From the IMG/VR virus record IMGVR_UViG_3300034102_002177: a DNA stretch of 64,000 bases; one strand, given 5' to 3'. The notes under the pieces are model-generated. The model did not search any database. It saw only the letters and a program-made list of their open reading frames with translations, and was not told where the DNA came from. The DNA is from a virus (Duplodnaviria > Heunggongvirae > Uroviricota > Caudoviricetes). This document shows positions 6,324 through 60,212 of the stretch, in pieces. How positions within the stretch are numbered: position 1 is the first letter of the stretch; each line of letters opens with the position of its first letter. Made by a program: the position numbers and the translations under genes.

Positions 6324-6331
6324 TATCTTTG
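6324..6331 (+). promoter_or_regulatory. Bacteroidetes-type -7 promoter box TAtcTTTG, 20 nt upstream of the ATG at 6352
   Basis: Exact TAnnTTTG. The same TATCTTTG/TACCTTTG recurs upstream of five other genes. Confidence 0.55.
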
Positions 6332-12739: not shown

Positions 12740-12747
12740 TATCTTTG
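12740..12747 (+). promoter_or_regulatory. Bacteroidetes-type -7 promoter box TAtcTTTG upstream of the 12773 ATG
   Basis: Exact motif, 25 nt upstream of the start. Confidence 0.55.
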
Positions 12748-22664: not shown

Positions 22665-23594
22665 ATGGAAGATTATTATAGTGTTTTGGGGGTTAATGAA
22701 AGTGCGACCCAAGAGGAGATTAAAAGAGAATATAGAAAGTTAGTAAAAGAGAACCATCCTGATAAAGGAGGGGATGAAGAGAAGTTTAAAAAAATCTCAA
22801 CGGCTTATGATACAATAGGTGACGAAACTAAACGTAGGCAGTACGATCAACAAAAAAACAATCCATTTGGTAACATGGGTGGATTTGGTGGAGCATCTAT
22901 GGAAGAAATGATGAACAGTATGTTTGGTGGTAATCGTAGACAACAAACTAGAGTTCACGATACTGTTATTGATGTTCATATTGGTGTGATAGAATCTTAT
23001 ATGGGTGGAAAGAAAACAATGACATATAATAGAAAGGATAAATGTAATCCTTGTAATGGAACAGGTGGTGAAAAGAAAGTATGTCACACTTGTGGAGGAC
23101 AAGGATATACAGTTAAACAAATGGGTTCAGGTATGTTCATTCAAATTGTACAGGTTGCTTGTGGAACTTGTAATGGTGTTGGAAAAATAACAACCGCCGC
23201 TTGTTATGCTTGCGGTGGACAAGGGGCTAAAAACACAATAAACACAATAGAAGTACAATTACCACATGGTATTGATGATGGTCAATTTTTAAGGTTACAA
23301 GGACTTGGTGATTACAGAAATGGGGGTTACGGTAATTTAGTTGTGAGAATAAGAACGATAAATGAGGGAAATTTTGAAAAGGATGGACCTAATTTAATAT
23401 ATAATGCATTTTTAAATATTGGAGATTTTCAAAAAGGGGATTTTGAGGTACCTCATCCCGATGGATCAATAAGTATTAAGTTTCCTAATAATATAGATAC
23501 CTCAATGCCGTTAAGAGTTAAGGGTAAAGGGTTCAAATATCAACCACAAGGTGATTTATTAATTAATCAATATTTAAAATATAATAGAGGTTAG
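22665..23594 (+). CDS. dnaJ: DnaJ (Hsp40) type-I co-chaperone
   Basis: J-domain with HPD (ENHPDKGG), G/F-rich linker, four CxxCxGxG zinc repeats. Confidence 0.85.
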   Translation: MEDYYSVLGVNESATQEEIKREYRKLVKENHPDKGGDEEKFKKISTAYDTIGDETKRRQYDQQKNNPFGNMGGFGGASMEEMMNSMFGGNRRQQTRVHDTVIDVHIGVIESYMGGKKTMTYNRKDKCNPCNGTGGEKKVCHTCGGQGYTVKQMGSGMFIQIVQVACGTCNGVGKITTAACYACGGQGAKNTINTIEVQLPHGIDDGQFLRLQGLGDYRNGGYGNLVVRIRTINEGNFEKDGPNLIYNAFLNIGDFQKGDFEVPHPDGSISIKFPNNIDTSMPLRVKGKGFKYQPQGDLLINQYLKYNRG

Positions 23595-23833: not shown

Positions 23834-24673
23834 ATGCTATCATATATCGGAGGTAAAAGTAAAATTGGAAAGTGGATTGTCCCTTTCTATGATAAAAATA
23901 TGGAAACATATCTTGAAACATTTGGAGGTATGTTTTGGTGTTTTTATAACATGGATTTAAAACAATTTCCCAATTTAAATAAAGTTGTGTATAACGACTT
24001 TAACCCACTCAACCACAATTTATTTAAGTGTGTTCAAAACCCAACTGAATTATTAAGGTCAATCAACTCAATTGACTGTCAAAAATTTGGTAATGAGGTA
24101 ACACCTGAAATATATCGTGAACAATTTGTTTCTTTCCAAAGTGAGTTATTTAATGACGGATTCAAAATTGATGGAGTTGATTATGATGCTGCGGCTAAAT
24201 ATGTTTACGTGTTAACTCAGGTTTTTAGTGGGTCAAAACCAGAAACGTCAAAATTTATTGACTTAAAAGGAAAATATAAGTCAAAATACCTTACCTTTAG
24301 AGACAAGTTAATGAAACCTGATTGGGTAGATCATTTCTTAAAGATTACAGATGTTGAAAACATGGATTTTGCGGATGTAATCAATAAGTACGACTCACCA
24401 TCAACATACATTTACTTGGACCCGCCTTATTGGAAAACTGAGAACTACTACTCCAACCACGACTTTGATCGTGACGATCATGAGCGTTTAGCAAATGTGT
24501 TAGATGAGGTTAAAGGTAAGTTTTCATTGTCTTACTATGACTTTGACTTACTTCGTGAATGGTTCCCTGAGGATAAATATACTTGGGTTAGAAAAGAGTT
24601 TGCAAAAGCGGCGGCAGCTAAGAAAGGGGAGAAACAAAATATGGGTGAAGAGTTACTTATAATGAATTACTAA
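23834..24673 (+). CDS. Dam-like N6-adenine DNA methyltransferase (D12 class)
   Basis: N-terminal SYIGGKSK, catalytic motif IV YLDPPYW. Confidence 0.7.
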   Translation: MLSYIGGKSKIGKWIVPFYDKNMETYLETFGGMFWCFYNMDLKQFPNLNKVVYNDFNPLNHNLFKCVQNPTELLRSINSIDCQKFGNEVTPEIYREQFVSFQSELFNDGFKIDGVDYDAAAKYVYVLTQVFSGSKPETSKFIDLKGKYKSKYLTFRDKLMKPDWVDHFLKITDVENMDFADVINKYDSPSTYIYLDPPYWKTENYYSNHDFDRDDHERLANVLDEVKGKFSLSYYDFDLLREWFPEDKYTWVRKEFAKAAAAKKGEKQNMGEELLIMNY

Positions 24674-27126: not shown

Positions 27127-27134
27127 TATCTTTG
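27127..27134 (+). promoter_or_regulatory. Bacteroidetes-type -7 promoter box TAtcTTTG upstream of 27158
   Basis: Exact motif, 23 nt upstream of the ATG. Confidence 0.55.
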
Positions 27135-27157: not shown

Positions 27158-27913
27158 ATGATTTACACACCAGAATTAATTAAACAAGTGGCACCATCGG
27201 TGTTCGCAACAGAACCTTCAAGTAAATTAACTAACAAATATTCTTTTGTACCTACGGATCAGGTAATTGAATATTTTGTAAGAGAAGGTTGGGATGTTTC
27301 TTCGGCACATCAAACGGGTAGAGGTATCCATGCTTTACATGAAGTTAAATTCCGTAACAAACAATTACCGGCAGTTGGTGATACCTTAGTTGAGGCGATT
27401 GTTCGTAACTCACACAATGGTACTTCAGGGTTTTCTTTGGGGGCTGGTCTTTATCGTTTGGTTTGTAGTAATGGTCTTGTTGTCCCTACGTCTGTTTCTG
27501 AAAGATTTAATATTCGTCATAAGGCATTTACTTTAGATGAGGTTAAAGAATTGACTGAAAGTTTTAGTAAGAAATTACCTAAGATTGAACATTCTGTTGG
27601 TAGAATGATGGCAAGAACATTAACAATTGATGAGAAGATTGATTTTGTTGAAAAATCCTCTAAGTTTAGATGGTCAATGGGATCTGTACCTGCGGAGTTA
27701 AATATTGAAGAAATATTAACACCTTTAAGACACGAAGATTCTGGAGATGACCTTTGGTCAACATTCAATATGGTTCAGGAAAAATTTGTCCGAGGGGGTA
27801 TTGAGTATAAGACAAAAACAGGTCGTAGATCAAGTTTAAGAAGTTTGAAAAACATATCATCTTTGAATTATGTTAACACAAAACTTTGGGAAACTGCTGA
27901 ATCGATGTTGTAA
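27158..27913 (+). CDS. Hypothetical protein
   Basis: 251-aa ORF with its own promoter and terminator. Confidence 0.5.
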   Translation: MIYTPELIKQVAPSVFATEPSSKLTNKYSFVPTDQVIEYFVREGWDVSSAHQTGRGIHALHEVKFRNKQLPAVGDTLVEAIVRNSHNGTSGFSLGAGLYRLVCSNGLVVPTSVSERFNIRHKAFTLDEVKELTESFSKKLPKIEHSVGRMMARTLTIDEKIDFVEKSSKFRWSMGSVPAELNIEEILTPLRHEDSGDDLWSTFNMVQEKFVRGGIEYKTKTGRRSSLRSLKNISSLNYVNTKLWETAESML

Positions 27914-28289: not shown

Positions 28290-28604
28290 ATGGAAATTAC
28301 GAGTGTAGAATTACAAGAAAAAATCAACAAAGGTGAAAAACTTATTATTGAGTTTTGGGCTGAATGGTGTGGGCCATGTAGAATGATGAAACCCATCTTT
28401 GAGAGAATCTCAACTGAAAATACATCTGACGTACAAATGTATACAATGAATGTTGATTTAAATAGAGAAGTTGGGGCATCGTTAGGTATTAGAAGTATCC
28501 CTACGATTAAGGTAATCAATTCTGGTGAAGTTATTGACACAAAAGTTGGTGTTCTTAACGAAGGACAACTAAAAGGTATGTTAACTGAATTAATTAATGG
28601 ATAA
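28290..28604 (+). CDS. trxA: Thioredoxin
   Basis: WAEWCGPCRMMKP active site. Confidence 0.85.
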   Translation: MEITSVELQEKINKGEKLIIEFWAEWCGPCRMMKPIFERISTENTSDVQMYTMNVDLNREVGASLGIRSIPTIKVINSGEVIDTKVGVLNEGQLKGMLTELING

Positions 28605-28881
28605 GGTAGCGGTTCTTTTTACGATGAAACAATGTCCTTTTTGTCATATGTTAAAAGAAATGTTAGACAAAGAGGGTGTTGAATATGTTGATCGTGACAT
28701 ACACGAATATGAGGAAGAGTATAACTTATTTGTTGAAGTAACAGAAAATGAGTTTGTTCCTGCGTTTATGTTGATTGAATCACCTGAGAATAATCCTGTT
28801 ACTAGATTATTTGCCCCTGACCGAGATTTTGAAGATATCAATCAGGGTGCTAAAATCATTAAAGAATTCTTTGAAAGATAG
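28597..28881 (+). CDS. Glutaredoxin-like (NrdH/Grx) redoxin
   Basis: N-terminal MKQCPFCHMLK CxxC in glutaredoxin context. Overlaps trx by 8 nt. Confidence 0.65.
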   Translation: MDKVAVLFTMKQCPFCHMLKEMLDKEGVEYVDRDIHEYEEEYNLFVEVTENEFVPAFMLIESPENNPVTRLFAPDRDFEDINQGAKIIKEFFER

Positions 28882-30978: not shown

Positions 30979-30986
30979 TATATTTG
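30979..30986 (+). promoter_or_regulatory. Bacteroidetes-type -7 box TAtaTTTG
   Basis: Exact TAnnTTTG. Implies a TSS near 30993, so the second Met (31012) is the likely start. Confidence 0.45.
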
Positions 30987-31011
30987 TAAAGAATTGAATA
31001 TTTATTATTAT

Positions 31012-32502
31012 ATGTCAAGAATAGTAGAGATAAAGGAAAGTGATTTAGTTGATCTAATAAAAACTATAATATTTGAGGAAACTGAAGATCAAAATGATTA
31101 TTATGATCTTTCACCTGAACAGTATTATAAATTGTTACGATCTGTTAATTATGTGGCTCAGGCAATACCTAAGTTACCAATGTTTAAAGGTAAAAAACTT
31201 AGAGTTAATGGTAATTTAAATTTATCCGATAAACCTATTAAAAGTTTGGGTGAATTATCAATAACTGGACAGTTAGATTTTAGGAATACAAATATAAAAA
31301 GTTTAGAGGGTGTTGAATATGGTGTCCTTGGGACTTATTATGGTACGCCATATTCGGAAGAAATTGAAAGACGTAAAAAACAAAAAGAAAGAGACGATGC
31401 CGATCAGAGAAGAATTGATGATGAGTGGAATTTAAACGATACTGATAATACTGGGGAAATGGCTCATGCGGTATTCCGATTTATGGTTAATGAGGGTGAT
31501 ATTGATGAGTTAGATGAAGATGAAATTGAAGAGTTAAAAAGTTTAGAACAAAAACTAGAGGAACTCCAAGATAGGATTGATGTTGAATCAGATGCTGATG
31601 TGGTTGATGAATTAACAAATGATTATGATGAGTTACAATATGATATTGACGAACTTAAATCTAAAAATAATGATGTTTACGGATTAATTCCAACCGGTTA
31701 TAATCATTATGAGATGGATACATTTAGATCAATTCATGATGATACAAATGGAAATACATATGCGGTTGGTACCGAATACGAAGCGGATAAATCTCTTGAA
31801 ACTTATTATGATGATATGGTGGATGATTTAAGTAATTTTGATAAAAATACTTTATCTTATTATATTGATGGTGATGAGGTGGCTGAATATTTTGAGGAAA
31901 CAATAAGAGAATGGATCTATGATGACCCGGATAATTATGATGTGACAAGATATCTGTCCAAATCTCAAGAAACCGAAATAAAAGAATTAGAGGTTGAGTT
32001 ATTTTTATTAAACTATGGTATTATACCACCATTAGAATTGGTTGTTAACCGAGAAAATAATTGGGAGTACACTGATGGTGTCGGAAATAAAATAAACTTT
32101 ATTTCCAACCAAGACGGTAGTAGTACGGTTTTATTAAATGGGACACCAACTCTCAAGAATCCGGTATATGAAGATATTGATTGGGATGAAATGTCAGAAA
32201 ATATTTCTGAAAGAATTGTTGATATTAATGATGAGATAGAAACAATAAAAGATAATCCGGATGGAGATCTTGATGACAGTACTGTTGAAAGAGAAGTTGA
32301 AGAAAAAATGGATGAAATAAAAGATGATCCAGTTAGATGGTTGGACGACTATGGTATGGAGTATCAACAATTTGTAGATGTGAGAGGTTTAAAGGACCAA
32401 TTAGTAAGTGAATCGGATTATGGTACATTGGCAAGTTATGACGGAACTTATGATGAAATTAGAGTTGATAATACAAACTACGTTGTCTTTAGAATTGACT
32501 AA
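31012..32502 (+). CDS. Large highly acidic protein
   Basis: About 497-aa D/E-rich ORF. Alternative start at 30994. Confidence 0.5.
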   Translation: MSRIVEIKESDLVDLIKTIIFEETEDQNDYYDLSPEQYYKLLRSVNYVAQAIPKLPMFKGKKLRVNGNLNLSDKPIKSLGELSITGQLDFRNTNIKSLEGVEYGVLGTYYGTPYSEEIERRKKQKERDDADQRRIDDEWNLNDTDNTGEMAHAVFRFMVNEGDIDELDEDEIEELKSLEQKLEELQDRIDVESDADVVDELTNDYDELQYDIDELKSKNNDVYGLIPTGYNHYEMDTFRSIHDDTNGNTYAVGTEYEADKSLETYYDDMVDDLSNFDKNTLSYYIDGDEVAEYFEETIREWIYDDPDNYDVTRYLSKSQETEIKELEVELFLLNYGIIPPLELVVNRENNWEYTDGVGNKINFISNQDGSSTVLLNGTPTLKNPVYEDIDWDEMSENISERIVDINDEIETIKDNPDGDLDDSTVEREVEEKMDEIKDDPVRWLDDYGMEYQQFVDVRGLKDQLVSESDYGTLASYDGTYDEIRVDNTNYVVFRID

Positions 32503-32543
32503 TATCTTTACAGAATAGAAAAATATTATTATCTTTATGTGTA

Positions 32544-33326
32544 ATGGGAAGAAAGAAAAAAATAGAGTTTTTAATGAACACCGAGTGGATGTTTGAAAAA
32601 CCTATTGACCAAGAGCACAAAGAATACAAGTTATTATCGTACTTCCAAAAAATGGGAGAAAAATTAGACAACATGGAACTGTATCCAAGTTTCATTGAAT
32701 TATCATTACATTTAGCGAATATCCAAACCTTAATTAAGGATAAGAAAATAATTTATACCGATAAGAAATTTTCAACAATAGACGATGAGTTACTTGTTAA
32801 AGATTTAAAGATCAAAGAAATCCCAACACTGGAAAGTGATGAAATGGGTGAATTTACAAAAATACTTTCGTATAGTGCTCCAAGGATGTTAGAATACTTT
32901 AACATAGCAAAATCTGTTTGGGAAATAGTTTTTGATAGTATTGTTATGAAGTTAAAGAAAAACAAAAGTGAAGTTTTACAAAAAAAAGGTTATTTTTATT
33001 ATATTAATCCTAAAGATGAGATGTATTATGTTTGGGAGTATGATATTAAACCTGTTAATAAAAAATCACCTGAAAGTAAAACTTTAGTGAATTTAATATA
33101 TTCAGATAAAAAAAATAATTTGACAATTACAAAAATTATAAATACATTTAGTCAATGGAACACAGAAAATAAATCAAAGTTACCTCTATTTGAAATGAGT
33201 TGTGAGGGTGAGTTTCCGATTAATGAAACACTTTTACCTCTTTTCAAAAGAAAGTTGATTAGTTATGTAAACCAAGTACAAATGTTGGAAAACTACAAAA
33301 AGAACAAGGAACAATTAAATTCTTAA
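32544..33326 (+). CDS. Hypothetical protein
   Basis: 260-aa ORF. Confidence 0.45.
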   Translation: MGRKKKIEFLMNTEWMFEKPIDQEHKEYKLLSYFQKMGEKLDNMELYPSFIELSLHLANIQTLIKDKKIIYTDKKFSTIDDELLVKDLKIKEIPTLESDEMGEFTKILSYSAPRMLEYFNIAKSVWEIVFDSIVMKLKKNKSEVLQKKGYFYYINPKDEMYYVWEYDIKPVNKKSPESKTLVNLIYSDKKNNLTITKIINTFSQWNTENKSKLPLFEMSCEGEFPINETLLPLFKRKLISYVNQVQMLENYKKNKEQLNS

Positions 33327-33466
33327 TATGGATAAAAATTTTGACAAATTAATTGAAAAATTAATTAAGGATCTACCAAATGATATGGAGTTAGGTAGAG
33401 AAATCAGAAAGGCATATATTAAAAATGTAAAAGAAAAAAAATCCGAAACCCTTAAATCTAATTTAA

Positions 33467-33649
33467 ATGGGATTCAATAAAAGAATTTTCACAAAAGAAC
33501 TTATTATAAGACACATTTATGATATTGAAAGATATCTAAGTGTTGATGCGGCATTTTTGAGAGATGATTTCTCAAGAGATGTTTATAGAATGCATAATGA
33601 GGGAAAATCAAAAGAAGAAATAATAAAATACATAAATGAAAACAAATGA
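33467..33649 (+). CDS. Small hypothetical protein
   Basis: 60-aa ORF abutting glnA-like gene. Confidence 0.3.
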   Translation: MGFNKRIFTKELIIRHIYDIERYLSVDAAFLRDDFSRDVYRMHNEGKSKEEIIKYINENK

Positions 33650-34770
33650 AAATTAAGTTAGAGTATGTTTGGCTTGATGGATACAAACCAGAACCAAACC
33701 TTAGAAGTAAAGTTAAAATTGTTGAAAGTGAAGTTCCTATGGAATTAAAAGATATTCCGGTATGGAATTTTGATGGATCATCCACTTCTCAAGCGGAAAC
33801 AGGTAATTCGGATCGTCTTTTAAAACCTGTTAGACAATATACAACCCATGGATTCCCATTCATAAATGATACTGTGTATGTGTTATGTGAAGTATTAAAT
33901 CCTGATGGTACACCACACGAATCAAATAAAAGATCTCAGATTGGAGATAACTTTGAAGATCTTTGGTTTGGTTTTGAACAAGAATACTTTATTCGTGAAG
34001 AAATTAACGGAAACATTTTAGGACATAAAAGAAACATTCTTAAAGGTCAGGGTGAATATTATTGTGGTGTGGGTCATAATGTTGTTGGTCGTGATTTTGT
34101 TGAAGAACATTTAGAAATGTGTTTAAACTACGGAATTGATATTACCGGTATAAATGCTGAAGTTGCTTTAGGCCAGTGGGAATATCAAGTATTTTCAAAA
34201 GGAAAACATAAAGGAGGAGATGATCTCTGGATGACTCGTTACTTCTTATTTAAGATGGGGGAAAAATACGGATATCATATTGAACTACATCCAAAACCAT
34301 TAACTCACGGAGAATGGAATGGATCAGGACTCCACACAAATTTTTCAACAGATATGATGAGAAACGAGGGGAATGAGAAATATTTTATGGCTTTGTTTAA
34401 TGCATTTGAATCAAGACACCAAGATCATATTAAAGCGTATGGGTCCAACAACAACCTTCGTTTAACTGGTGAGTATGAAACTCAATCAATTGATAAGTTC
34501 AGTTGGGGTGTGTCTGATCGAGGAGCGTCAATTAGAGTTCCACAAGATACCGCAAAAGAATGGAAAGGTTATGTTGAAGATCGTAGACCTGGATCAAACG
34601 CGGATCCATACAAAATTATTCGTGAGATTGTTAAATCATTAGACACCACTAAACAAATCTATGAAATGAAAGATATAATGACTAGATTTGTTGATATGGA
34701 TGGTTTAAGTGGTAAGTACAATGCCATATCAAATGAAGAATTATTAAAAGAATATAGAGAGGAGGAATAA
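33646..34770 (+). CDS. Glutamine synthetase, type II (GSII)
   Basis: N-terminal LEYVWLDG, GFEQEYF, GLHTNFST, RGASIRVP. All are hallmark GSII motifs. Confidence 0.85.
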   Translation: MKIKLEYVWLDGYKPEPNLRSKVKIVESEVPMELKDIPVWNFDGSSTSQAETGNSDRLLKPVRQYTTHGFPFINDTVYVLCEVLNPDGTPHESNKRSQIGDNFEDLWFGFEQEYFIREEINGNILGHKRNILKGQGEYYCGVGHNVVGRDFVEEHLEMCLNYGIDITGINAEVALGQWEYQVFSKGKHKGGDDLWMTRYFLFKMGEKYGYHIELHPKPLTHGEWNGSGLHTNFSTDMMRNEGNEKYFMALFNAFESRHQDHIKAYGSNNNLRLTGEYETQSIDKFSWGVSDRGASIRVPQDTAKEWKGYVEDRRPGSNADPYKIIREIVKSLDTTKQIYEMKDIMTRFVDMDGLSGKYNAISNEELLKEYREEE

Positions 34771-34772
34771 TA

Positions 34773-35057
34773 ATGGATAATTTAAAAGTGTGTTTATGTG
34801 GGGGTACAGGACCTTGTCAGTGTCCTCCACTAAAAGTAGAACAAGTTAACCATCCACTACATTATGGTGGAGTAAACAATCCTTACGAAGCCATCAAGGT
34901 AATAGATGCTTGGGGATTAGGATTTAGTTTAGGTAATACAGTAAAATACATTTCAAGAGCCGGAAAGAAAGATTCGGATAAAGAATTACAAGATTTAAAA
35001 AAGGCATTATGGTACTTACAACACCATATTAAAATGTTAGAAAATCAAAATGGATAA
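34773..35057 (+). CDS. DUF3310-like phage protein
   Basis: HPLHYGG...PYEAIKVIDAWGLGFSLGNTVKYISRAGKK...LKKALWYLQHHI pattern. Confidence 0.45.
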   Translation: MDNLKVCLCGGTGPCQCPPLKVEQVNHPLHYGGVNNPYEAIKVIDAWGLGFSLGNTVKYISRAGKKDSDKELQDLKKALWYLQHHIKMLENQNG

Positions 35058-35370
35058 AAAAACTAAAAAAGTATTAGAAAAAGAGATTGTTGTTTTAGAT
35101 GCGATAACAAGTCCGGGGGAACTTATAAGAGAAACTTTAATTAATTTTACTTGGGGATTATTAGGGAACTCCGTAGTGGTTTTTGTTTCTAAAGAAATGG
35201 ATTTCATGGTTTTAATTAACTATATTTTATACTACATTTTAATATCATATATTGTGAATAGAAAAAAATACGAAACCATGTTAGGTAAGTTTATTGTACT
35301 TCCTGGATCGGCAGCAATCGGTGCTTATACGGGATACAAAATTGCACAATTAATTTCAGGAACATTATGA
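35050..35370 (+). CDS. Small membrane protein
   Basis: Two hydrophobic helices. Confidence 0.4.
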   Translation: MDKKTKKVLEKEIVVLDAITSPGELIRETLINFTWGLLGNSVVVFVSKEMDFMVLINYILYYILISYIVNRKKYETMLGKFIVLPGSAAIGAYTGYKIAQLISGTL

Positions 35371-36305
35371 AAATAGTAGTAACGGGAGGGGCGGGTTTTA
35401 TAGGTTCCGCATTTATAAATCACTTATTAGATAACTTTGAATGTGATGTTCTTTGTATTGATAAACTGACTTATGCTGGTAAAAGAGAAAATATCAAACA
35501 TAATGTTTCGTTTCTACAAAAAGATATTTGTGAGGTGACGGCAGATCAACTTGGTGAATTTGATTATATTGTTCATTTTGCTGCGGAATCTCATGTAGAT
35601 AATTCAATTAAAAATGGGTTACCATTTGTTAGAACTAATGTGGAAGGAACATTCAATTTGTTGGAGATTTCAAGAAAGAATAAAAATCTTAAGAAATTTA
35701 TTCACATCTCAACTGATGAAGTTTATGGGGACATGGATGATCATTTTGCAATAAACCATACTGCAACAGAGGAGAATAAGATTAAACCAAGTTCCTATTA
35801 CTCATCAACTAAGGCAGCTTCTGATATGTTAGTTATTTCCGCAAATAGGACATATGGGTTACCATACTTAATCACAAGAACTTGTAATAATTTTGGGGAA
35901 CATCAATTTGAAGAGAAATTCCTCCCAACAATTACAAGATCAATTAATGAGGGTAACTCAATACCTGTTTATGGTGATGGAAAACAGGTAAGGGAATGGA
36001 TGTATGTGTATGATAATGTAAAAGTAATATGTGACCTAATGTTTGATGATGAGGTTATAAATCAAATTTTTAACATTGGAACACGTTTTAGATTAACTAA
36101 TTTAGATATTATTAAAGAAATAGGTATTATTTTAAATAAAGATGTTAAAATAAAACACGTTGAGGATAGATTAGGTCATGATAAGAAATATGGTTTAAAT
36201 ACCAATAAAATGGATAACTACTATAAAAATAAACATGGACAAATACCTGAATTTTTAAATTTAATAAACTATCTAAAAAAAATTTACGGAAATGAAATGG
36301 GATAG
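35367..36305 (+). CDS. dTDP-glucose 4,6-dehydratase-like (RmlB) NAD-dependent sugar dehydratase/epimerase
   Basis: VTGGAGFIGSAF Rossmann, HFAAESHVDNS, YSSTKAASD (YxxxK). Confidence 0.8.
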   Translation: MKIVVTGGAGFIGSAFINHLLDNFECDVLCIDKLTYAGKRENIKHNVSFLQKDICEVTADQLGEFDYIVHFAAESHVDNSIKNGLPFVRTNVEGTFNLLEISRKNKNLKKFIHISTDEVYGDMDDHFAINHTATEENKIKPSSYYSSTKAASDMLVISANRTYGLPYLITRTCNNFGEHQFEEKFLPTITRSINEGNSIPVYGDGKQVREWMYVYDNVKVICDLMFDDEVINQIFNIGTRFRLTNLDIIKEIGIILNKDVKIKHVEDRLGHDKKYGLNTNKMDNYYKNKHGQIPEFLNLINYLKKIYGNEMG

Positions 36306-36445: not shown

Positions 36446-37291
36446 ATGATAGAAACAGGAAAAATAATAAATGGGGATTGTGTTGAGGTAATGAAAACAC
36501 TACCTGAAGGAACGGTAGATCTGATTGTAACGTCTCCACCTTATGGGGTTGGCATTGCGTATGATGTTCACGAAGATGATGTTGAATTTGATGAATATGT
36601 TGAGTTTGCAAAAAATTGGTTAACAGAAGCGTATAGATTATTAAAAGATGATGGAAGAATCGCTTTGAATATTCCATATGAGATTAATCGTCAAAAAAAA
36701 GGAGGTCGTATCTTTTTTGTATCTGAGATGTGGCAAATTATGAAAGAGATTGGTTATGGGTTCTTTGGAATCGTTGACCTTGAAGAACAATCACCACATA
36801 GAAGCAAGACAACGGCTTGGGGATCTTGGATGAGTCCTAGTTCACCATATATCTATAACCCAAAAGAATGTGTTATCTTAGCGTATAAGAAACAACACAT
36901 CAAAAAAGTTAAAGGTCAACCACAATGGACCGGAGTTCCAACTGATATTGAACAGGAAGATGGAACATTAAAGAAAAAAGTAGTTTATGAAGAGGAAGAT
37001 AAGAAAGAGTTTATGGAGCTTGTTTTTGGTCAGTGGAATTATTTTGCAGATACAAAATCACTCACCAAGGCGACCTTCTCAATGGACATCCCAACGAAAG
37101 CAATCAAAATATTGTCCTACAAAAACGATGTAGTATTAGATCCGTTTGCGGGATCTGGAACAACTTTAGTGGCGGCAGAAATATTAAATCGTAGATGGTT
37201 AGGAATTGAATTATCACCTAATTATATGGAAATTGCTTTAGAAAGAGTTAGTTTATTTGCGAATCAGAAATCACTCTTTGATCAAAATTGA
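36446..37291 (+). CDS. Beta-class DNA N6-adenine/N4-cytosine methyltransferase
   Basis: Motif IV DLIVTSPPYGVG precedes motif I LDPFAGSGTT. Confidence 0.8.
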   Translation: MIETGKIINGDCVEVMKTLPEGTVDLIVTSPPYGVGIAYDVHEDDVEFDEYVEFAKNWLTEAYRLLKDDGRIALNIPYEINRQKKGGRIFFVSEMWQIMKEIGYGFFGIVDLEEQSPHRSKTTAWGSWMSPSSPYIYNPKECVILAYKKQHIKKVKGQPQWTGVPTDIEQEDGTLKKKVVYEEEDKKEFMELVFGQWNYFADTKSLTKATFSMDIPTKAIKILSYKNDVVLDPFAGSGTTLVAAEILNRRWLGIELSPNYMEIALERVSLFANQKSLFDQN

Positions 37292-37627
37292 ATCTCCCTC
37301 GGTGATATCGTATTTGATACAATCACCACCATTGATCTCTAAGATCATATCACCAACACCTTCATAGTGGGAACATTTCGTATTGTCTTGTTCCCTACAT
37401 GGAGGACAGTCACTGTAAATTTTTTGAATTTTACCGTCTGATATGTAAATGATGTCTAAAGAAATCAAACAATCTTTCATCCAAAATGAATGATAACCTT
37501 CATTCATTACAAATAACATTCCATTAAATGTGTCATTAAATTTTTTACCTTTCATCCCTTCTTGAATGTCTTTATCAGTTATTGCTGATTTGACATTAAA
37601 AAGATTATTGTTTATTATTATTTCCAT
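37271..37627 (-). CDS. DUF192 (COG1430) family protein
   Basis: GMLFVMNEGYHSFWMKDCLISLDIIYISDGKI and LEINGG cores. Confidence 0.55.
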   Translation of the reverse strand: MEIIINNNLFNVKSAITDKDIQEGMKGKKFNDTFNGMLFVMNEGYHSFWMKDCLISLDIIYISDGKIQKIYSDCPPCREQDNTKCSHYEGVGDMILEINGGDCIKYDITEGDSILIKE

Positions 37628-37646
37628 ATTTATAAATATAGGAGGT

Positions 37647-38066
37647 ATGAAGAAAAATAAAAGATTTTCCGGTATATTAGTTAAATGTAATGATAAGGTA
37701 TTGTTGTGTAAGAGAAGTAATGATAATACTTTACCTGGCGTTTGGTCAATACCTGGTGGTGGGATAGAAGATGGGGAAAGTCCTGAAGATGCTGCTCGTA
37801 GAGAGTTTTATGAAGAAACAAATATCAAAGTTGATGGTAATTTAGATTTAGTTGGATTTATTGATCGTTATAATAAAGACGGGACTTATTTAAAAGGATT
37901 TATGTATGTGTACTCTTTAGAGGTGGATGAAGAGATTTATCCCGATTTAGAAAACGCAGTTGATGGTGGAGAACATACTGAATGTGGTTACTTTGGTATT
38001 AATAATTTACCATTGGATAAAAAAAATGATGAATTTTATAATATTATTGTAAATAATTTAAAATAA
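37647..38066 (+). CDS. NUDIX hydrolase
   Basis: Nudix box GGIEDGESPEDAARREFYEETNI. Start taken at the internal Met, because the track N-terminus overlaps the minus-strand gene. Confidence 0.8.
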   Translation: MKKNKRFSGILVKCNDKVLLCKRSNDNTLPGVWSIPGGGIEDGESPEDAARREFYEETNIKVDGNLDLVGFIDRYNKDGTYLKGFMYVYSLEVDEEIYPDLENAVDGGEHTECGYFGINNLPLDKKNDEFYNIIVNNLK

Positions 38067-38163
38067 AATTGAATTTTGGTAAATAATGGTATATTTATAT
38101 CATACAAAAACAACCAAAATCCCCCTTCTCAGTTATTTAATGGTTAATCAAAACATAATCCCA

Positions 38164-38210
38164 TAATTTTTTTAAAAAAAAAGTTGTGGGATTTTTTGTT
38201 TTTGTTTGGC
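38164..38210. terminator. Hairpin ATCCCATA-loop-TGTGGGAT followed by a T-rich run
   Basis: Near-perfect IR with a palindromic T7/A9 loop. Confidence 0.4.
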
Positions 38211-38227: not shown

Positions 38228-38235
38228 TACCTTTG
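38228..38235 (+). promoter_or_regulatory. Bacteroidetes-type -7 box TAccTTTG upstream of 38262
   Basis: Exact motif, 26 nt upstream of the ATG. Confidence 0.55.
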
Positions 38236-39576: not shown

Positions 39577-39584
39577 TATCTTTG
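39577..39584 (+). promoter_or_regulatory. Bacteroidetes-type -7 box TAtcTTTG upstream of 39601
   Basis: Exact motif, 16 nt upstream of the ATG. Confidence 0.55.
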
Positions 39585-46310: not shown

Positions 46311-47444
46311 ATGGAAAATTTAAATAGTGTATGTTATGTTGGTGTGATCGGAGAGATATTACCAATAGATGGAGCGGATAACATTGAACTTGCATTGGTT
46401 GGTGGTTGGCAAGCCATTACTAAGAAAGGTGAATATAGTGTTGGTGATAAGGTTGTTGTTGCAACTACCGATGCGGTAATCCCTGTTGAATTATCTGATT
46501 TAATGGGCGTAACTAATTACCTAAGAAAAGGTCAAAGAGTTCGCACCGTTAAACTTCGTAAAGTTTACTCTGAGTGTTTGTTAATACCATTCAAATACTT
46601 GGCACCAAGGTCTTTGGAGAACAATGTAAATGAAGGTCACGACATGATGGAACTGTTAGGTATCACTAAATATGAACCACCAGTTAAGATGGTTGAGATG
46701 AGTGTTGGTGGAAGAAAATTCAAATACCACCAAAACCCGAACTTCCACATTTACTACAAATTCCCAAATATGAAGAACGTACCTGATATGTTCAATGAGG
46801 AGGATGAAGTATGTATCACTCGTAAGTTACACGGAACCAATGCTCGTTACGGTATTGTGAGAAAGAAAAAACTTTCAATCCTTGATAAGATTAAAGGGTG
46901 GTTTGGTAATCAATGGGTTGGTTACGAATACGTTTATGGATCCCACAACGTTGAGAAGGGATCTGACTCTCAAGGTTTTTATGCAACTGATGTGTGGAAA
47001 ACAGTTGCGGAAAAATATGATATCCGTAAAAAACTTTGGGATCACGTTAAAGATACTTTTGATCCTAATGATGTTGGTTCAGGATTTATCATCTATGGTG
47101 AAATCTATGGACACGGAATACAAAAGAATTACGACTATGGTTTAACTGAAATCCGTTTTGCGGGATTTGACGTTGAGGTTGATGGATCTTATGTTGATAA
47201 CATTTACCAATCAACTCATTTTAAATGTTTAGGTTTAGAAGAAGTTGAAACTTTATATTCAGGTCTTTGGTCAAAAGAAGAACAAGATAAATATGTGTTT
47301 AATAACAACATTCAAGGAACTAAAGTTCCTCACGAAGGTATTGTTGTAAAATGTTTATCTGGTAATCGTCATAAGATTGGAAAAGTAATCAACCCTGATT
47401 ATTTAATTTACGGTGAAAAAAATAACGTAGGTGACTCCCATTAA
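46311..47444 (+). CDS. RNA ligase, Rnl5-type (DraRnl/NgrRnl-like)
   Basis: Motif I as KLHGTN (KxHGxN variant characteristic of DraRnl), motif IV EGIVVK, motif V HKIGKV. Confidence 0.65.
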   Translation: MENLNSVCYVGVIGEILPIDGADNIELALVGGWQAITKKGEYSVGDKVVVATTDAVIPVELSDLMGVTNYLRKGQRVRTVKLRKVYSECLLIPFKYLAPRSLENNVNEGHDMMELLGITKYEPPVKMVEMSVGGRKFKYHQNPNFHIYYKFPNMKNVPDMFNEEDEVCITRKLHGTNARYGIVRKKKLSILDKIKGWFGNQWVGYEYVYGSHNVEKGSDSQGFYATDVWKTVAEKYDIRKKLWDHVKDTFDPNDVGSGFIIYGEIYGHGIQKNYDYGLTEIRFAGFDVEVDGSYVDNIYQSTHFKCLGLEEVETLYSGLWSKEEQDKYVFNNNIQGTKVPHEGIVVKCLSGNRHKIGKVINPDYLIYGEKNNVGDSH

Positions 47445-49507: not shown

Positions 49508-51364
49508 ATGGGAAAAATAATTGGAATTGACTTAGGTACAACAAACTCTTGTGTGGCCGTTATGGAAGGGAATGAACCGGTAGTTATTACAAATAACGAA
49601 GGTAAACGAACAACGCCATCTGTAATCGGATTCATTAAAGATGGTGAAAGAAAGATTGGGGATCCGGCTAAACGACAAGCGGTAACCAATCCTGAAAAAA
49701 CCGTACATTCAATTAAACGATTTATGGGAACAAGTTTTACTGAATCTAAAAATGAGGTAAAGAAAGTTCCTTATAAAGTTGTAAAAGGAGATGGTGGATC
49801 ACCAAGAGTGGATATTGATAAACGACAGTATTCTCCGCAGGAACTTTCCGCAATGGTTTTACAAAAAATGAAACAAACTGCTGAGGATTATTTGGGTGAG
49901 ACGGTTACTGAGGCGGTTATTACGGTACCAGCGTATTTTAATGATGCTCAACGACAGGCAACCAAAGAAGCGGGTGAGATTGCGGGTTTGGAAGTAAAAC
50001 GTATCATTAATGAGCCAACAGCGGCGGCATTAGCATATGGTTTAGATAAAATGTCTAAAGATATGGTAGTGGTTGTGTTTGACTGTGGTGGTGGTACACA
50101 CGATGTTTCTATTCTTGAATTAGGTGATGGTGTATTTGAAGTATTGTCTACTGATGGTGATACTCACTTAGGTGGTGATGACTTTGATCAGGTTATTATT
50201 GAATGGTTAGCAAATGAATTCAAAGATGAGAATGGAATTGATGTGACCAAGGATCCGATGGCGTTACAACGTTTACGAGAAGCGGCAGAAAAGGCAAAAG
50301 TTGAATTATCTTCAACCTCATCAACGGAAATTAATTTACCGTATTTGATGCCGGTAGATGGGATGCCAAAACACTTGGTTAGAACTTTATCAAAATCTAA
50401 ATTTGAACAACTGGCAGATTCATTAATCAAACGAACTATTGAACCTTGTAAGACAGCGTTGAAAAATGCTAAGATGGATGTGTCTGATGTTGATGAAATT
50501 ATCTTGGTTGGAGGTACAACAAGAATTCCGGCAATTCAAGAAGCGGTTAAACAATTCTTTGGTAAGGAACCATCTAAAGGTGTTAATCCTGATGAGGTAG
50601 TTGCTTTAGGTGCGGCGATCCAAGGTGGTGTACTTGCTGGTGATGTTAAAGATGTCTTATTATTAGATGTGACTCCATTATCTTTAGGTATTGAAACTAT
50701 GGGTGGAGTTATGACTAAATTGATTGATGCTAACACCACGATCCCAACTAAAAAATCTCAGGTGTTCTCAACGGCAGTAGATAATCAACCAACAGTTGAG
50801 ATCCACGTACTTCAGGGAGAACGAGCAATGGCAAAAGATAATAAAACCATTGGTAAGTTCAATTTAGATGGTGTTCCACCAGCGATGAGAGGTGTTCCAC
50901 AAATTGAGGTTACGTTTGATATTGATGCGAATGGTATTATCAATGTTTCTGCAATGGATAAAGGTACAAACAAACAACAAACAATTCGTATCGAAGCGTC
51001 CTCAGGTTTATCAAAAGAAGAGATTGAGAAAATGAAACAAGAAGCTGAGTTAAATGCCGAACAGGATAAAAAACTCAGAGAAGATGCTGAAGTTCTAAAC
51101 ACGGCTGATGGTACAATCTTCCAAACTGAGAAGTCAATCAAAGATTTGGAAGATAAATTAACTGAAGAACAAAAGAGTGAACTTGATGGATTACTTGGAA
51201 CGTTAAAAGAATCTTACGCAAAAAAAGACATTGAGAAGATTAATCAAGATATTGAAAATCTTAATAGTCAGTTCCACCATATTAGTCAATCATTGTACGA
51301 ACAAACTACAACTGAAGAAGGTAATGATGCTCCGTCTGACGTTGAATTTGAAGAAGTACTTTAA
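49508..51364 (+). CDS. dnaK: Hsp70 chaperone DnaK
   Basis: [47 protein letters not shown], full substrate-binding and lid domains. Variant [10 protein letters not shown] in place of canonical DLGGGTFDVS. Confidence 0.9.
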
Positions 51365-52414: not shown

Positions 52415-52999
52415 ATGAAAGTATTATTTTTAGATCATGATGGTGTAATTTGTCTCTCCAATAATTGGGGTGGACGAACAAAGAAATGGGCGAAATATCG
52501 TTCTGAAAATCCTGAATCCTCCTCAAATCTAAAAGAGGGTCCGGTGTCTGTACGATTTGATGACTTTGATCAAAAGGCAATTAAGATCCTTAATGAGATT
52601 GTTGAAGAGACAGGATGTGAAATTGTGGTAAGTTCAGATTGGAAGCTACACGCAACTCTTGAAGAACTTGGTGAATATTATGAATTACATGGGATAAGTA
52701 AAAAACCAATTGCGTTAACACCAAATATACAAGATTGTAAAGTTCATGGTAATTTATTTATATGGTCACCAAGATGGGATTTAGAACAAACACGAACTAT
52801 TGAAATCAGACAATATCTTCAGGATCATCCTGAGGTTACACATTGGGTTTCTGTTGATGATTTAAATATGGGTAAAATTGGTGAGGATTGGAAAGATGTA
52901 TGGGCGATAGATAATTTTGTTTTAACGCCAAGATCAAATGAGGGAATAAAACAGAGCGGAGTTAAAGAAAAAATATTAAAGTTTTTGAAAAATGACTAA
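52415..52999 (+). CDS. HAD-superfamily phosphatase-like protein (T4 Pnk 3'-phosphatase-domain-like)
   Basis: N-terminal VLFLDHDGVI = hhhhDxDGV motif I, comparable to T4 Pnk VIFDVDGTL. Confidence 0.45.
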   Translation: MKVLFLDHDGVICLSNNWGGRTKKWAKYRSENPESSSNLKEGPVSVRFDDFDQKAIKILNEIVEETGCEIVVSSDWKLHATLEELGEYYELHGISKKPIALTPNIQDCKVHGNLFIWSPRWDLEQTRTIEIRQYLQDHPEVTHWVSVDDLNMGKIGEDWKDVWAIDNFVLTPRSNEGIKQSGVKEKILKFLKND

Positions 53000-54927: not shown

Positions 54928-54980
54928 AAATTTGTTTTATTTAAAAAATAATTACTATATTTGTCTAATAATATAATTTT

Positions 54981-57973: not shown

Positions 57974-57981
57974 TATATTTG
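57974..57981 (+). promoter_or_regulatory. Bacteroidetes-type -7 box TAtaTTTG, 4 nt before the ATG at 57986
   Basis: Exact motif. Implies a leaderless or near-leaderless transcript. Confidence 0.4.
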
Positions 57982-60210: not shown

Positions 60211-60212
60211 TA

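What the first reader, a model, noticed from the sequence alone, without database searches (positions are those of the whole stretch)
33646..34770. Type-II glutamine synthetase as an auxiliary metabolic gene
GSII hallmarks are all present: EYVWLDG, GFEQEYF, HTNFST, RGASIRVP. A phage-borne glutamine synthetase is uncommon. It could boost glutamine supply for nucleotide synthesis (thyA, trx and grx are also present), or it could serve a non-canonical role.
Basis: partly seen in the sequence, partly recalled or inferred. Interest (0 to 1): 0.55.

Follow-up and report, generated by a model that had tools for sequence, protein, structure and literature searches.

The report
Intact glutamine synthetase in large phage
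A large freshwater phage that probably infects Bacteroidota carries an intact, strongly conserved type II glutamine synthetase, most likely to keep glutamine flowing during infection; the gene is real, but recent surveys already list this kind of gene in big phages.

Summary
ORF 33646-34770 (+) encodes a 374-aa type II glutamine synthetase (GSII) with both Pfam GS domains. All 22 active-site positions checked are intact. The model is confident (pLDDT 93.5) and superposes on solved GSII decamer subunits (TM about 0.8).

The gene belongs to a phage. The window has sigma-70 factors, SbcCD, primase, DUF3310, DnaK and DnaJ. It almost lacks Shine-Dalgarno sites and has Bacteroidota-type TAnnTTTG promoters, so the host is probably a Bacteroidota bacterium.

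The protein belongs to a monophyletic viral GSII family (99% bootstrap). I fetched 160 IMG/VR loci out of 862 confirmed matches, from contigs up to 290 kb. Selection is strongly purifying (dN/dS 0.07). The family has a conserved C-terminal tail of about 40 aa that cellular GlnII lacks. The closest cellular relatives (58% identity or less) are mainly Bacteroidota and Planctomycetota GlnII.

GS sits in a variable slot of a conserved backbone, and close relatives lack it at exactly that junction. Megaphages predicted to infect Bacteroidetes carry GSII of separate origin.

"Uncommon" holds only for deposited phage genomes (4 of 50,697). Papers from 2025-2026 already report glnA in hundreds of large phages, and I found no biochemical study. 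Verdict: a new member of a known kind, of moderate interest.

The parts
33646..34770 (+). Type II glutamine synthetase CDS (374 aa plus stop)
   Evidence: ORF and motifs; Pfam and NCBIfam; PDB sequence matches at 1e-85; AF2 model with pLDDT 93.5 and Foldseek TM 0.81/0.88 to 4bax
33658..33903 (+). N-terminal beta-grasp domain (residues 5-86), carrying ammonium-pocket residues D43 and S46
   Evidence: Pfam PF03951 on residues 5-86; D43 and S46 align with human D63 and S66 and are invariant in 81 of 81 viral sequences
33958..34611 (+). Catalytic domain (residues 105-322). It holds metal ligands E111, E113, E172, E179, H230 and E311, flap residue E278, and R272, R292, R297 and R313
   Evidence: Pfam PF00120 on residues 105-322; residue mapping onto human GS; all invariant in 81 of 81
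34642..34767 (+). C-terminal tail specific to the viral family (residues 333-374), ending in an acidic ...ELLKEYREEE
   Evidence: Cellular GlnII proteins end near query residue 335. Tail dN/dS is 0.21, with invariant Y339, K357, Y358, E365, L366, L367 and Y370. The sister viral cluster P0121 shares it. AF2 extends the last helix to residue 347, and the distal part has pLDDT 56-70
33467..33649 (+). Small upstream ORF (60 aa) whose stop overlaps the GS start (ATGA)
   Evidence: Sequence; present in 63 of 80 close loci; in GS-less relatives it abuts DUF3310 directly
34773..35057 (+). DUF3310 gene 2 nt downstream of GS (PHROG 'nucleotide kinase' families)
   Evidence: Pfam PF11753 at 3e-13; phrog_236 at 9e-23; found in 49 of 80 and 59 of 80 GS-bearing loci
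30994..36305 (+). Tightly packed co-directional gene block containing GS; probably one transcription unit (inferred)
   Evidence: Gaps of 41 nt or less and four overlaps, behind a 268-nt intergenic region; no terminator-like site inside the block
30979..30986 (+). TATATTTG, a candidate Bacteroidota-type -7 promoter element heading the GS block
   Evidence: TAnnTTTG on the + strand occurs 13 times in intergenic DNA against 2.6 +/- 1.6 in shuffles (0 of 2000 shuffles reach 13), and twice on the - strand. Most copies lie 17-27 nt before start codons
38157..38193 (+). First terminator-like hairpin downstream of the block
   Evidence: Scan hit with a 17-bp stem followed by a T-run

Best explanation
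The gene encodes a catalytically competent type II glutamine synthetase (glutamate + NH4+ + ATP -> glutamine + ADP + Pi). It is carried by a large phage (at least 200 kb) that most likely infects a freshwater Bacteroidota bacterium. It is expressed inside a phage operon, probably from a host-type promoter. It adds glutamine-synthesising capacity that does not depend on the transcriptional or post-translational state of the host's own GS, and so sustains the amide-nitrogen supply (nucleotides, amino sugars, asparagine, NAD, protein) needed to build a very large AT-rich genome and many virions. Shown: the identity, the fold, the intact active site, purifying selection, the phage context and the family distribution. 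Inferred: enzymatic activity, decameric assembly, time of expression, independence from host regulation, and which glutamine-consuming pathway benefits.
For: The GSII domains and fold are established. All 22 positions mapped from human GS are conserved and invariant in 81 viral sequences. They cover the ammonium pocket D63/S66/Y162/E305, ATP contact R324 and gamma-phosphate contact R340 (roles from PMC4737493), plus the metal ligands (roles from my own knowledge of PDB 2QC8). Core dN/dS is 0.07 at dS about 1. Codon usage and GC3 are indistinguishable from the rest of the phage genome. The start overlaps the upstream ORF by ATGA, and there is no riboswitch or terminator nearby. Phage identity rests on sigma-70 factors, SbcCD, RuvC, primase, DUF3310, DUF932 and an amidase. 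The exact protein lies on contigs of 0.2-1 Mb. A Bacteroidota host is supported by SD-like motifs in 2 of 86 genes against a 12.8% background, with A-rich leaders, and by TAnnTTTG promoter boxes enriched in intergenic DNA. The GSI model match ends at position 368 of 462, so the segment carrying the GSI adenylylation site has no counterpart. Nucleotide-metabolism genes lie in the same genome (thyA, trx, grx), and GS is adjacent to thyA in one sub-lineage. Separate GSII lineages occur in megaphages predicted to infect Bacteroidetes, which suggests a recurring benefit.
Against: No activity, expression or phenotype data exist for any phage GS that I could find. GS is dispensable at this locus, since 27 of 63 related loci lack it there, so it is accessory and its benefit may be conditional. 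No glutamine-dependent amidotransferase was seen in the 64-kb window, so the link to nucleotide synthesis is circumstantial. Many Bacteroidota already have their own GlnII, so the added value of a phage copy is not self-evident. The conserved tail and the Tyr or Phe replacing the flap-adjacent His hint that its properties differ from those of cellular GlnII.
Confidence: 0.72

Rival explanations
1. The chemistry is the same but the purpose differs. The phage GS mainly recaptures ammonium released when host macromolecules and nucleotides are degraded or deaminated during infection, which conserves nitrogen in N-poor lake water; it does not boost any particular biosynthetic branch.
For: The ammonium pocket is intact and invariant. 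The family comes largely from lake metagenomes: IMG sample 3300044630 yields both the viral contig L026 and a MAG labelled ME2003-07-23 (L148). A preprint reports 215 of 247 GS-bearing huge phages from freshwater or marine habitats. The presence/absence polymorphism fits a benefit that depends on conditions.
Against: No deaminase or nuclease-salvage genes were linked to GS in the window. Sequence alone cannot separate this reading from the main explanation.
Confidence: 0.12
2. Regulatory hijack. By raising the glutamine/2-oxoglutarate ratio, or by binding host nitrogen regulators through its extra acidic C-terminal tail, the phage GS makes the cell signal nitrogen sufficiency and reprogrammes host gene expression. 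In this reading the metabolic flux is secondary.
For: The tail is family-specific and conserved (dN/dS 0.21, with invariant KY...ELL..Y residues) and ends in an acidic run. GS proteins are known regulatory partners in other bacteria, for example GS-GlnR (PMC9249791, title and abstract seen).
Against: The full catalytic apparatus is under much stronger constraint than the tail (0.07 against 0.21), as expected for an enzyme. No partner gene is evident: the conserved neighbours have no recognisable domains. Nitrogen regulators of Bacteroidota were not examined here.
Confidence: 0.08
3. A GS-like enzyme with a different acceptor. It would gamma-glutamylate a polyamine or another amine, as the GS-like GlnA2-4 and PuuA-type enzymes do, perhaps for detoxification or for a modified metabolite.
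For: GS-like enzymes without GS activity exist (PMC9397018; PMC11335346, abstract seen). The viral family replaces the conserved His before the flap Glu with Tyr or Phe and has a one-residue insertion before the EWNGSG loop. It is the most divergent branch on the GlnII model, at about 330 bits against about 390-410 for cellular relatives.
Against: All four ammonium-pocket residues and all glutamate- and ATP-binding residues are invariant. In the review read here, the known alternative-acceptor enzymes are glnA-like paralogues distinct from the functional GlnA and GlnII; that they are GSI-type is my own knowledge. In human GS, H304A changes KM(glutamate) only about 5-fold (PMC13657631).
Confidence: 0.05
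4. The gene is not viral. It would be a cellular gene on a misassembled or misbinned contig, or it would belong to a giant virus of eukaryotes.
For: One close homolog is labelled 'Bacteroidetes bacterium' in NCBI (P0085). GS is also known in Mimiviridae (PMC9270025).
Against: The same gene order recurs on many independent contigs from different samples. No genome among 185,579 GTDB species representatives carries a relative above 58% identity. The window has bacterial sigma factors, PHROG hits and Bacteroidota-style promoters and leaders. Composition is homogeneous across the window.
Confidence: 0.02

Closest known systems
Bacterial GlnII (type II glutamine synthetase), e.g. Streptomyces coelicolor GlnII (PDB 4BAX) and the GlnII of Bacteroidota, Planctomycetota and Verrucomicrobiota
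   Same: The two-domain architecture is the same, and the N-terminus starts at the same point, without the eukaryotic N-terminal extension. Identity is 50-58% to Bacteroidota and Planctomycetota GlnII. It is the best structural match (TM 0.81/0.88). All active-site residues are shared. The query falls on the bacterial side of the split from eukaryotic GSII (98% bootstrap).
   Different: The viral family forms its own clade (99%). It has a conserved C-terminal tail of about 40 aa, Tyr or Phe in place of the His before the flap Glu, Glu in place of Asp with a one-residue insertion before WNGSG, and a 3-residue insertion at 67-72. It scores about 60-85 bits lower on the GlnII model than its cellular relatives do. 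It is encoded in a phage operon.
GS or glnA genes reported as auxiliary metabolic genes in huge, jumbo or large phages (bioRxiv 10.1101/2025.02.27.640493; PMC13037316; PMC13172472)
   Same: The category is the same: a GS gene in phage genomes over 200 kb, mostly from freshwater or marine samples, clustering with prokaryotic homologs. The function proposed there is the same as here (glutamine supply under nitrogen limitation).
   Different: In the passages I read, those surveys annotate and count the genes. They do not state the GS type, the tail, the selection regime, a Bacteroidota host signal or the cassette-like presence/absence. I did not check whether this exact family is among their 248 genes, because their supplementary table was not read.
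GSII homologs in the 635-735 kb megaphages LR756501/LR756503, LR756502 and LR745206 (Mahaphage clade)
   Same: They are also GSII, also in phages predicted to replicate in Bacteroidetes (PMC7162821), and those phages also encode a DnaK 62-65% identical to the one in this window.
   Different: Identity to the query is only 46-56%. They lack the tail (331-365 aa) and do not group with the query family (joined in 4 of 100 bootstrap replicates). LR756501 sits among Bacteroidota GlnII (weak support, 47%). LR756502 and LR745206 form a separate clade with a marine cluster (100%).
Eukaryotic GSII (human GLUL, maize GS1a, yeast Gln1) and Mimiviridae GS
   Same: The fold (TM about 0.8) and the catalytic residues are the same, and identity is 40-47%.
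   Different: The eukaryotic references separate from the query with 98% bootstrap support. The query has no N-terminal extension. Giant-virus GS is reported to cluster with eukaryotic homologs, whereas large-phage GS clusters with prokaryotic ones.

Membership tests
Glutamine synthetase type II (GSII / GlnII) | Gln-synt_N beta-grasp domain followed by the Gln-synt_C catalytic domain in a chain of about 330-380 aa | tested here: met
   PF03951 on residues 5-86 and PF00120 on residues 105-322, both above the gathering score; 374 aa
Glutamine synthetase type II (GSII / GlnII) | Full-length similarity to GSII as opposed to GSI or GSIII | tested here: met
   GlnII model 328.6 bits over positions 1-328 of 333, against 61 bits for GSI and 32 bits for GSIII. 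PDB GSII chains score 1e-74 to 1e-85, against 1e-10 or weaker for GSI
Glutamine synthetase type II (GSII / GlnII) | Score at or above the curated NCBIfam GlnII equivalog cutoff (500 bits) | tested here: not met
   The query scores 328.6 bits. The calibration shows the cutoff is narrow: cellular Bacteroidota and Planctomycetota GlnII score 389-413, and megaphage GS scores 394. This failure marks divergence from the model's seed group and is not exclusion from GSII
Glutamine synthetase type II (GSII / GlnII) | Metal ligands (human E134, E136, E196, E203, H253, E338) | tested here: met
   E111, E113, E172, E179, H230 and E311, invariant in 81 of 81 family members. The residue roles come from my own knowledge of PDB 2QC8
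Glutamine synthetase type II (GSII / GlnII) | Ammonium pocket (D63, S66, Y162, E305) and ATP/phosphate arginines (R324, R340, R341-D339) | tested here: met
   D43, S46, Y139, E278, R297, R313, R314 and D312, with roles from PMC4737493. All but D312 are invariant in 81 of 81 sequences, and D312 is invariant in the 51-sequence alignment
Glutamine synthetase type II (GSII / GlnII) | GSII three-dimensional fold | tested here: met
   AF2 model with pLDDT 93.5 and pTM 0.91. Foldseek gives 4bax_A at E 1e-38 and TM 0.81/0.88, and human, maize, fly and yeast GSII at TM about 0.8
Glutamine synthetase type II (GSII / GlnII) | Decamer of two pentameric rings, with active sites formed between subunits | not testable with these tools
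   Only a monomer could be modelled. SEC-MALS, cryo-EM or a multimer prediction is needed
Glutamine synthetase type II (GSII / GlnII) | ATP-dependent synthesis of glutamine from glutamate and ammonium | not testable with these tools
   No biochemical data were found for any phage GS
Phage auxiliary metabolic gene (AMG) | A metabolic gene of cellular type located inside a bona fide phage genome, with phage genes on both sides | tested here: met
   The flanks hold DUF3310, an N6/N4 methylase, DUF932, SbcCD, a primase and sigma factors. The same context recurs in 141 of 160 viral loci, on contigs up to 290 kb
Phage auxiliary metabolic gene (AMG) | Accessory to the phage replication and structural core (variable presence among relatives) | tested here: met
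   36 of 63 related loci carry GS at the slot and 27 do not. L267 and L268 have the identical backbone with GS precisely absent. GS is found in three genomic contexts
Phage auxiliary metabolic gene (AMG) | Maintained by selection in the virus (not a decaying passenger) | tested here: met
   dN/dS is 0.07 for the core and 0.21 for the tail at dS about 1. Codon usage is adapted to the phage
Phage auxiliary metabolic gene (AMG) | Expressed during infection, with an effect on host metabolism | not testable with these tools
   Metatranscriptomes or an isolate are needed

The most novel reading that the evidence does not exclude
The viral GSII family may be a re-engineered, deregulated enzyme and not merely a borrowed copy. 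Its conserved acidic C-terminal tail (absent from all cellular GlnII examined) and the aromatic residue replacing the His that anchors the catalytic E305 loop would change its oligomeric behaviour, its product or feedback sensitivity, or its partner binding. The phage would then gain an always-on glutamine pump, or a nitrogen-status decoy, tailored to Bacteroidota. That could explain why at least two or three lineages of Bacteroidota-infecting large phages acquired GSII independently.
Probability: 0.2. Interest if true: 0.55.

Novelty: new member of a known kind. Interest (0 to 1): 0.33.

Why it matters
Glutamine synthetase is the gateway for ammonium into biomass. A virus-encoded copy that is abundant in lake phages of Bacteroidota (major degraders of algal polymers) would mean that part of the ammonium assimilation in infected cells is under viral control. 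That matters for nitrogen budgets in lakes. The family offers a clean natural experiment, because otherwise syntenic phages either carry or lack the gene. It also offers a compact, divergent GSII with an extra tail for enzymology. As a discovery it is incremental: recent surveys already list GS in large phages, and what is missing is experiment, not annotation.

Tried and rejected
1. Glutamine riboswitch or other regulatory RNA. Rfam at gathering thresholds found nothing in the whole window, and there is no intergenic space before GS anyway.

2. Nucleotide-level relatives among deposited phages. Megablast of 26-46 kb found nothing, and the 844-aa ORF has no tblastn hit, so this lineage is absent from GenBank phages.

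3. The first AF2 run used 51 close homologs and gave an unusable model (pLDDT 56). It was replaced by a run with a diverse alignment.

4. TAnnTTTG over the whole window is not significantly enriched (123 against 106 +/- 10). The signal appears only when the count is restricted to intergenic DNA and to one strand.

5. I tested whether Y277/E223 is a compensatory pair preserving the human H304-N246 hydrogen bond. I rejected it as a clean case, because both positions vary widely across GSII and a viral subclade has Phe at 277.

6. I first described GS as a vertically inherited core gene on the basis of synteny. I revised this after sampling loci through the neighbouring gene showed precise GS-less junctions.

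7. I looked for a function for the conserved neighbours (the 502-aa acidic ORF, the 260-aa ORF, and the 60-aa and 106-aa ORFs). There were no Pfam, PHROG or PDB matches.

8. Failure of the NCBIfam equivalog cutoff is not evidence against GSII membership, because cellular GlnII of the same part of the tree also fail it.

9. The sigma-70 consensus promoter scan is uninformative here (53 sites against 47.6 expected).
Full report
OBSERVATION. The translation contains EYVWLDG, GFEQEYF, HTNFST and RGASIRVP. It carries both Pfam glutamine-synthetase domains: Gln-synt_N on residues 5-86 and Gln-synt_C on residues 105-322. It matches the NCBIfam GlnII model end to end (4e-98, 328.6 bits), far better than the GSI model (61 bits) or the GSIII model (32 bits). 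Its best solved relatives are yeast Gln1 (3fky, 1e-85) and Streptomyces GlnII (4bax, 1e-83).

ACTIVE SITE. I aligned the protein with human GS. I had recalled the human sequence from memory, and it proved identical to PDB 8dnu_A over residues 1-373. All 22 functional positions examined are conserved:
- The ammonium pocket D63/S66/Y162/E305 maps to D43/S46/Y139/E278.
- The metal ligands E134/E136/E196/E203/H253/E338 map to E111/E113/E172/E179/H230/E311.
- The positions N248/G249/R299/R319 map to N225/G226/R272/R292.
- The positions W130/N255/S257/R262/R324/Y336/R340/R341 map to W107/N232/S234/R239/R297/Y309/R313/R314.
The roles of the ammonium pocket, R324, R340 and the D339-R341 pair are described in PMC4737493. 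The metal-ligand assignments rest on my own knowledge of the human GS structure (PDB 2QC8).

STRUCTURE. A first AlphaFold2 run with only close homologs was unusable (pLDDT 56). A second run used a 140-sequence alignment spanning 38-93% identity and gave pLDDT 93.5 and pTM 0.91. Foldseek against the PDB returns only GSII enzymes at the top. The best is 4bax_A (TM 0.81/0.88, rmsd 2.7 A), followed by human, maize, Drosophila and yeast GS at TM about 0.8.

WHAT GENOME THIS IS. The window is about 31% G+C, and almost all genes lie on one strand. Recognisable genes include:
- a primase (5369-6310) and an SbcC-like protein (9799-12174);
- two sigma-70-family factors, one at 13268-14068;
- DnaJ (22665-23594) and a full-length DnaK (49508-51364);
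- a Dam-type methylase (23834-24673), DUF932 (27158-27913), thioredoxin and glutaredoxin (28290-28881);
- DUF3310 (34773-35057), an N6/N4 methylase (36446-37291), NUDIX (37566-38066) and an RNA ligase (46311-47444);
- two GT9 heptosyltransferases (59293-61136), RuvC-like and SbcD-like proteins and a cell-wall amidase.
Bacterial sigma factors and many PHROG matches show that this is a bacteriophage and not a giant virus of eukaryotes. The exact GS protein occurs on contigs in the 0.2-1 Mb class, and close relatives lie on IMG/VR contigs of 274-290 kb. It is therefore a huge phage in the usual sense (over 200 kb).

HOST. Four independent signals point to Bacteroidota.
- Only 2 of 86 genes have a Shine-Dalgarno-like tetramer at -20..-5, against 12.8% at random positions, and the leaders are 55-60% A from -13 to -2. 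Bacteroidetes usually lack SD sequences (stated in PMC9723584).
- The motif TAnnTTTG occurs 13 times on the + strand in 3.3 kb of intergenic DNA, against 2.6 +/- 1.6 in shuffles (0 of 2000 shuffles reach 13). It occurs only twice on the - strand, and most copies lie 17-27 nt before start codons. From my own knowledge, TAnnTTTG is the -7 element of Bacteroidetes sigma-A promoters.
- The closest cellular GS relatives are mainly Bacteroidota, with Planctomycetota and Verrucomicrobiota.
- The DnaK and the GS both have their only homologs in deposited phages among the 635-735 kb megaphages. Al-Shayeb et al. predicted all genomes above 634 kb to replicate in Bacteroidetes (PMC7162821).
The host assignment is an inference, not a demonstration.

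THE FAMILY. The metagenomic protein database holds more than 8000 relatives at E <= 1e-20, and the best 120 are 78-95% identical. A second scan with the sister cluster P0121 yielded 268 more. The two scans may overlap. At 50% clustering the whole family collapses to one representative (P0121, 57% identical), and the next clusters are 50-55% identical. Among 185,579 GTDB species genomes the best match is 58% (a Saprospiraceae MAG).

PHYLOGENY. I built neighbour-joining trees with 100 bootstraps. All freshwater viral sequences, 26 of them spanning about 57-98% identity, form one clade (99%). Eukaryotic references split off with 98% support. Deeper nodes are unresolved. The megaphage GS sequences join the query family in only 4 of 100 replicates. 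LR756502 and LR745206 form a separate 100% clade with a marine cluster, and LR756501 sits among Bacteroidota GlnII (47%). This indicates at least two, and probably three, separate phage GSII lineages. Because the deep nodes are weak, the count is provisional.

SELECTION AND FAMILY-SPECIFIC FEATURES. Across 81 coding sequences, the core (residues 1-332) has dN/dS = 0.07 at dS about 1.0, and all 22 active-site residues are invariant. GC3 (0.227 against a genome mean of 0.237) and codon usage (r = 0.89 with the pooled genes) match the phage, so nothing suggests recent transfer. Compared with 40 cellular GlnII and 5 eukaryotic references, the viral clade has several distinguishing features.
- It has a C-terminal tail of about 40 residues (333-374). 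Cellular GlnII ends near residue 335. The tail is itself constrained (dN/dS 0.21; Y339, K357, Y358, E365, L366, L367 and Y370 invariant) and ends in an acidic run. AF2 extends the last core helix to residue 347 and is unsure about the remainder (pLDDT 56-70).
- It has Tyr at position 277 where the cellular and eukaryotic sequences compared have His (human H304).
- It has Glu223 for Asp, with a one-residue insertion, and a three-residue insertion at 67-72.
In human GS, H304 on the E305 loop hydrogen-bonds to N246 (written N249 elsewhere in that text), and H304A raises KM(glutamate) about five-fold (PMC13657631). Y277 and E223 align with exactly these two residues. Across 140 GSII representatives, however, both positions vary, and a divergent viral subclade has Phe at 277. 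I therefore treat this as a family trait that may tune loop dynamics, not as a demonstrated compensatory change. The viral family is the most divergent branch on the GlnII model, at about 330 bits. Cellular Bacteroidota and Planctomycetota GlnII score 389-413 and megaphage GS scores 394. None of them reaches the 500-bit equivalog cutoff, so that cutoff is narrow and failing it is not disqualifying.

GENOMIC SETTING. The GS start overlaps the stop of a 60-aa ORF (ATGA), and DUF3310 follows 2 nt after the GS stop. Genes from 30994 to 36305 are packed, with gaps of 41 nt or less, behind a 268-nt intergenic region. That region contains a TATATTTG box at 30979-30986. The next terminator-like hairpin is at 38157-38193. 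GS is therefore probably co-transcribed with its neighbours from a host-type promoter; this is inferred. No Rfam family, including glutamine riboswitches, matches anywhere in the window.

Of 160 GS-bearing viral loci, 141 have this context (the 260-aa ORF upstream and/or DUF3310 downstream). Two loci, from the 274-290 kb contigs, have GS between a UvrC-like gene and thymidylate synthase. Twelve have a third context, and five are too short to classify. I also sampled loci through the 260-aa neighbour. Only 36 of 63 have GS in the slot. In L267 and L268, whose neighbours are 76-87% identical, the backbone is otherwise the same and the 60-aa ORF abuts DUF3310 directly. The same slot variably holds the nucleotide-sugar epimerase (35367-36305, present in 8 of 80 close loci) and other inserts. 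GS is therefore an accessory cassette. It entered this phage family once (monophyly) and was then moved, lost or exchanged among relatives. Whether the GS-less junctions reflect loss or relocation could not be decided with 4-10 kb flanks.

MECHANISM. The best-supported reading is a working glutamine synthetase that supplements or replaces host capacity during infection. Identity, fold, intact catalytic machinery, strong purifying selection and phage residence are shown. Activity, decamer formation, time of expression and metabolic purpose are inferred. The match to the GSI model stops at position 368 of 462, so the segment that carries the adenylylation tyrosine of enterobacterial GSI (my own knowledge) has no counterpart. 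Expression from a phage operon would also bypass host transcriptional control of GS. The link to nucleotide synthesis is circumstantial. The same genome encodes thyA, trx and grx, and GS is adjacent to thyA in one sub-lineage. No glutamine-dependent amidotransferase is encoded in these 64 kb. The rivals are ammonium recapture, manipulation of nitrogen-status signalling (possibly through the tail), an alternative amine acceptor, and non-viral origin. They are listed with their evidence in the rival explanations. The last is effectively excluded.

WHAT IS KNOWN. A 2025 preprint reports 248 GS genes in 247 huge phages, 215 of them from freshwater or marine habitats, and proposes the same role. 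A 2026 survey lists glnA among jumbo-phage AMGs. A 2026 Nature Communications paper finds glnA commonly in giant viruses and large phages, with the phage copies clustering with prokaryotes. GS is also recorded in Mimiviridae. I found no paper containing phrases such as "phage-encoded glutamine synthetase" and no biochemical study. Among 50,697 deposited phage records, only four carry a GSII homolog, all of them metagenomic megaphages. The other eight hits are weak GSI-like matches at 25-28% identity.

VERDICT. The finding is real and correctly identified, but it belongs to a category already noted in the literature. This analysis adds several things: the type (GSII of bacterial affinity); a defined, abundant, monophyletic viral family with a conserved extra tail; a probable Bacteroidota host; quantified purifying selection; cassette-like presence/absence in a conserved backbone; and separate GSII lineages in other large phages predicted to infect Bacteroidetes. 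Novelty: a new member of a known kind. Interest: 0.33.

Noticed in passing
window intergenic regions, e.g. 6324-6331, 12740-12747, 27127-27134, 30979-30986, 38228-38235, 39577-39584, 54956-54963, 57974-57981: TAnnTTTG boxes in a shared context (tAttAtcTTTGt) lie 17-27 nt upstream of start codons. There are 13 on the + strand in intergenic DNA, against 2.6 expected, and 2 on the - strand. They look like Bacteroidota sigma-A -7 promoter elements used by the phage.
   Followed up: yes
window, all gene starts: Shine-Dalgarno-like motifs are almost absent (2 of 86 genes, below the 12.8% background), and leaders are strongly A-rich from -13 to -2. This is Bacteroidota-style translation initiation.
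   Followed up: yes
window 49508-51364 and 22665-23594: The phage encodes a full-length DnaK (Hsp70, 859 bits) and a three-domain DnaJ. The DnaK is 62-65% identical to those of the 635-735 kb megaphages LR745206, LR756502 and LR756501.
   Followed up: partly
window 35367-36305: A nucleotide-sugar epimerase/dehydratase gene sits in the same variable slot as GS. It is present in only 8 of 80 close relatives, and other relatives carry unrelated inserts of 213-460 aa there.
   Followed up: partly
window 13268-14068 (second copy not located): There are two sigma-70-family factors (regions 2 and 4; PHROG 351 'RNA polymerase sigma factor' matches twice), so the phage probably redirects host RNA polymerase in stages.
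   Followed up: no
window 59293-60210 and 60213-61136: There are tandem GT9 heptosyltransferase genes. Elsewhere in the window are a heptose-phosphate adenylyltransferase-like gene (phrog_7878, not located) and a weak LptF/LptG-like hit (55853-56746). Together they suggest the phage remodels LPS or the cell surface.
   Followed up: no
window 46311-47444 and 52415-52999: RNA-repair genes are present: an RNA ligase with a PHA02142 OB-fold, and a 194-aa ORF placed here by size as the HAD_SAK_2 ('Swiss Army Knife' RNA repair) hit. A cREC_REC domain protein was also detected but not located. This could be a counter-defence against tRNA or RNA nucleases.
   Followed up: no
window 63715-63999: Thymidylate synthase begins here and is cut off by the window end. 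In a sub-lineage (L017, L018, L248, L249) GS lies two small genes upstream of this thyA.
   Followed up: yes
window 221-2755, 30994-32502 and 32544-33326: Three conserved proteins have no match in Pfam or PHROGs. The 844-aa ORF also has no tblastn hit in deposited phages. The very acidic 502-aa ORF and the 260-aa ORF accompany the GS slot across the family, and the 260-aa ORF has no meaningful PDB match.
   Followed up: partly
window 37271-37627 (- strand): A DUF192 gene lies on the minus strand between + strand genes and overlaps both neighbouring ORFs as listed. It is called as a gene in public assemblies and is conserved in 51 of 80 close loci.
   Followed up: no
L161 (LR756501), L162 (LR756502), L163 (LR745206): The largest known phages, which are predicted to infect Bacteroidetes, also encode GSII, but of separate phylogenetic origin and without the C-terminal tail. 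GSII acquisition seems to recur in large phages of Bacteroidota.
   Followed up: partly
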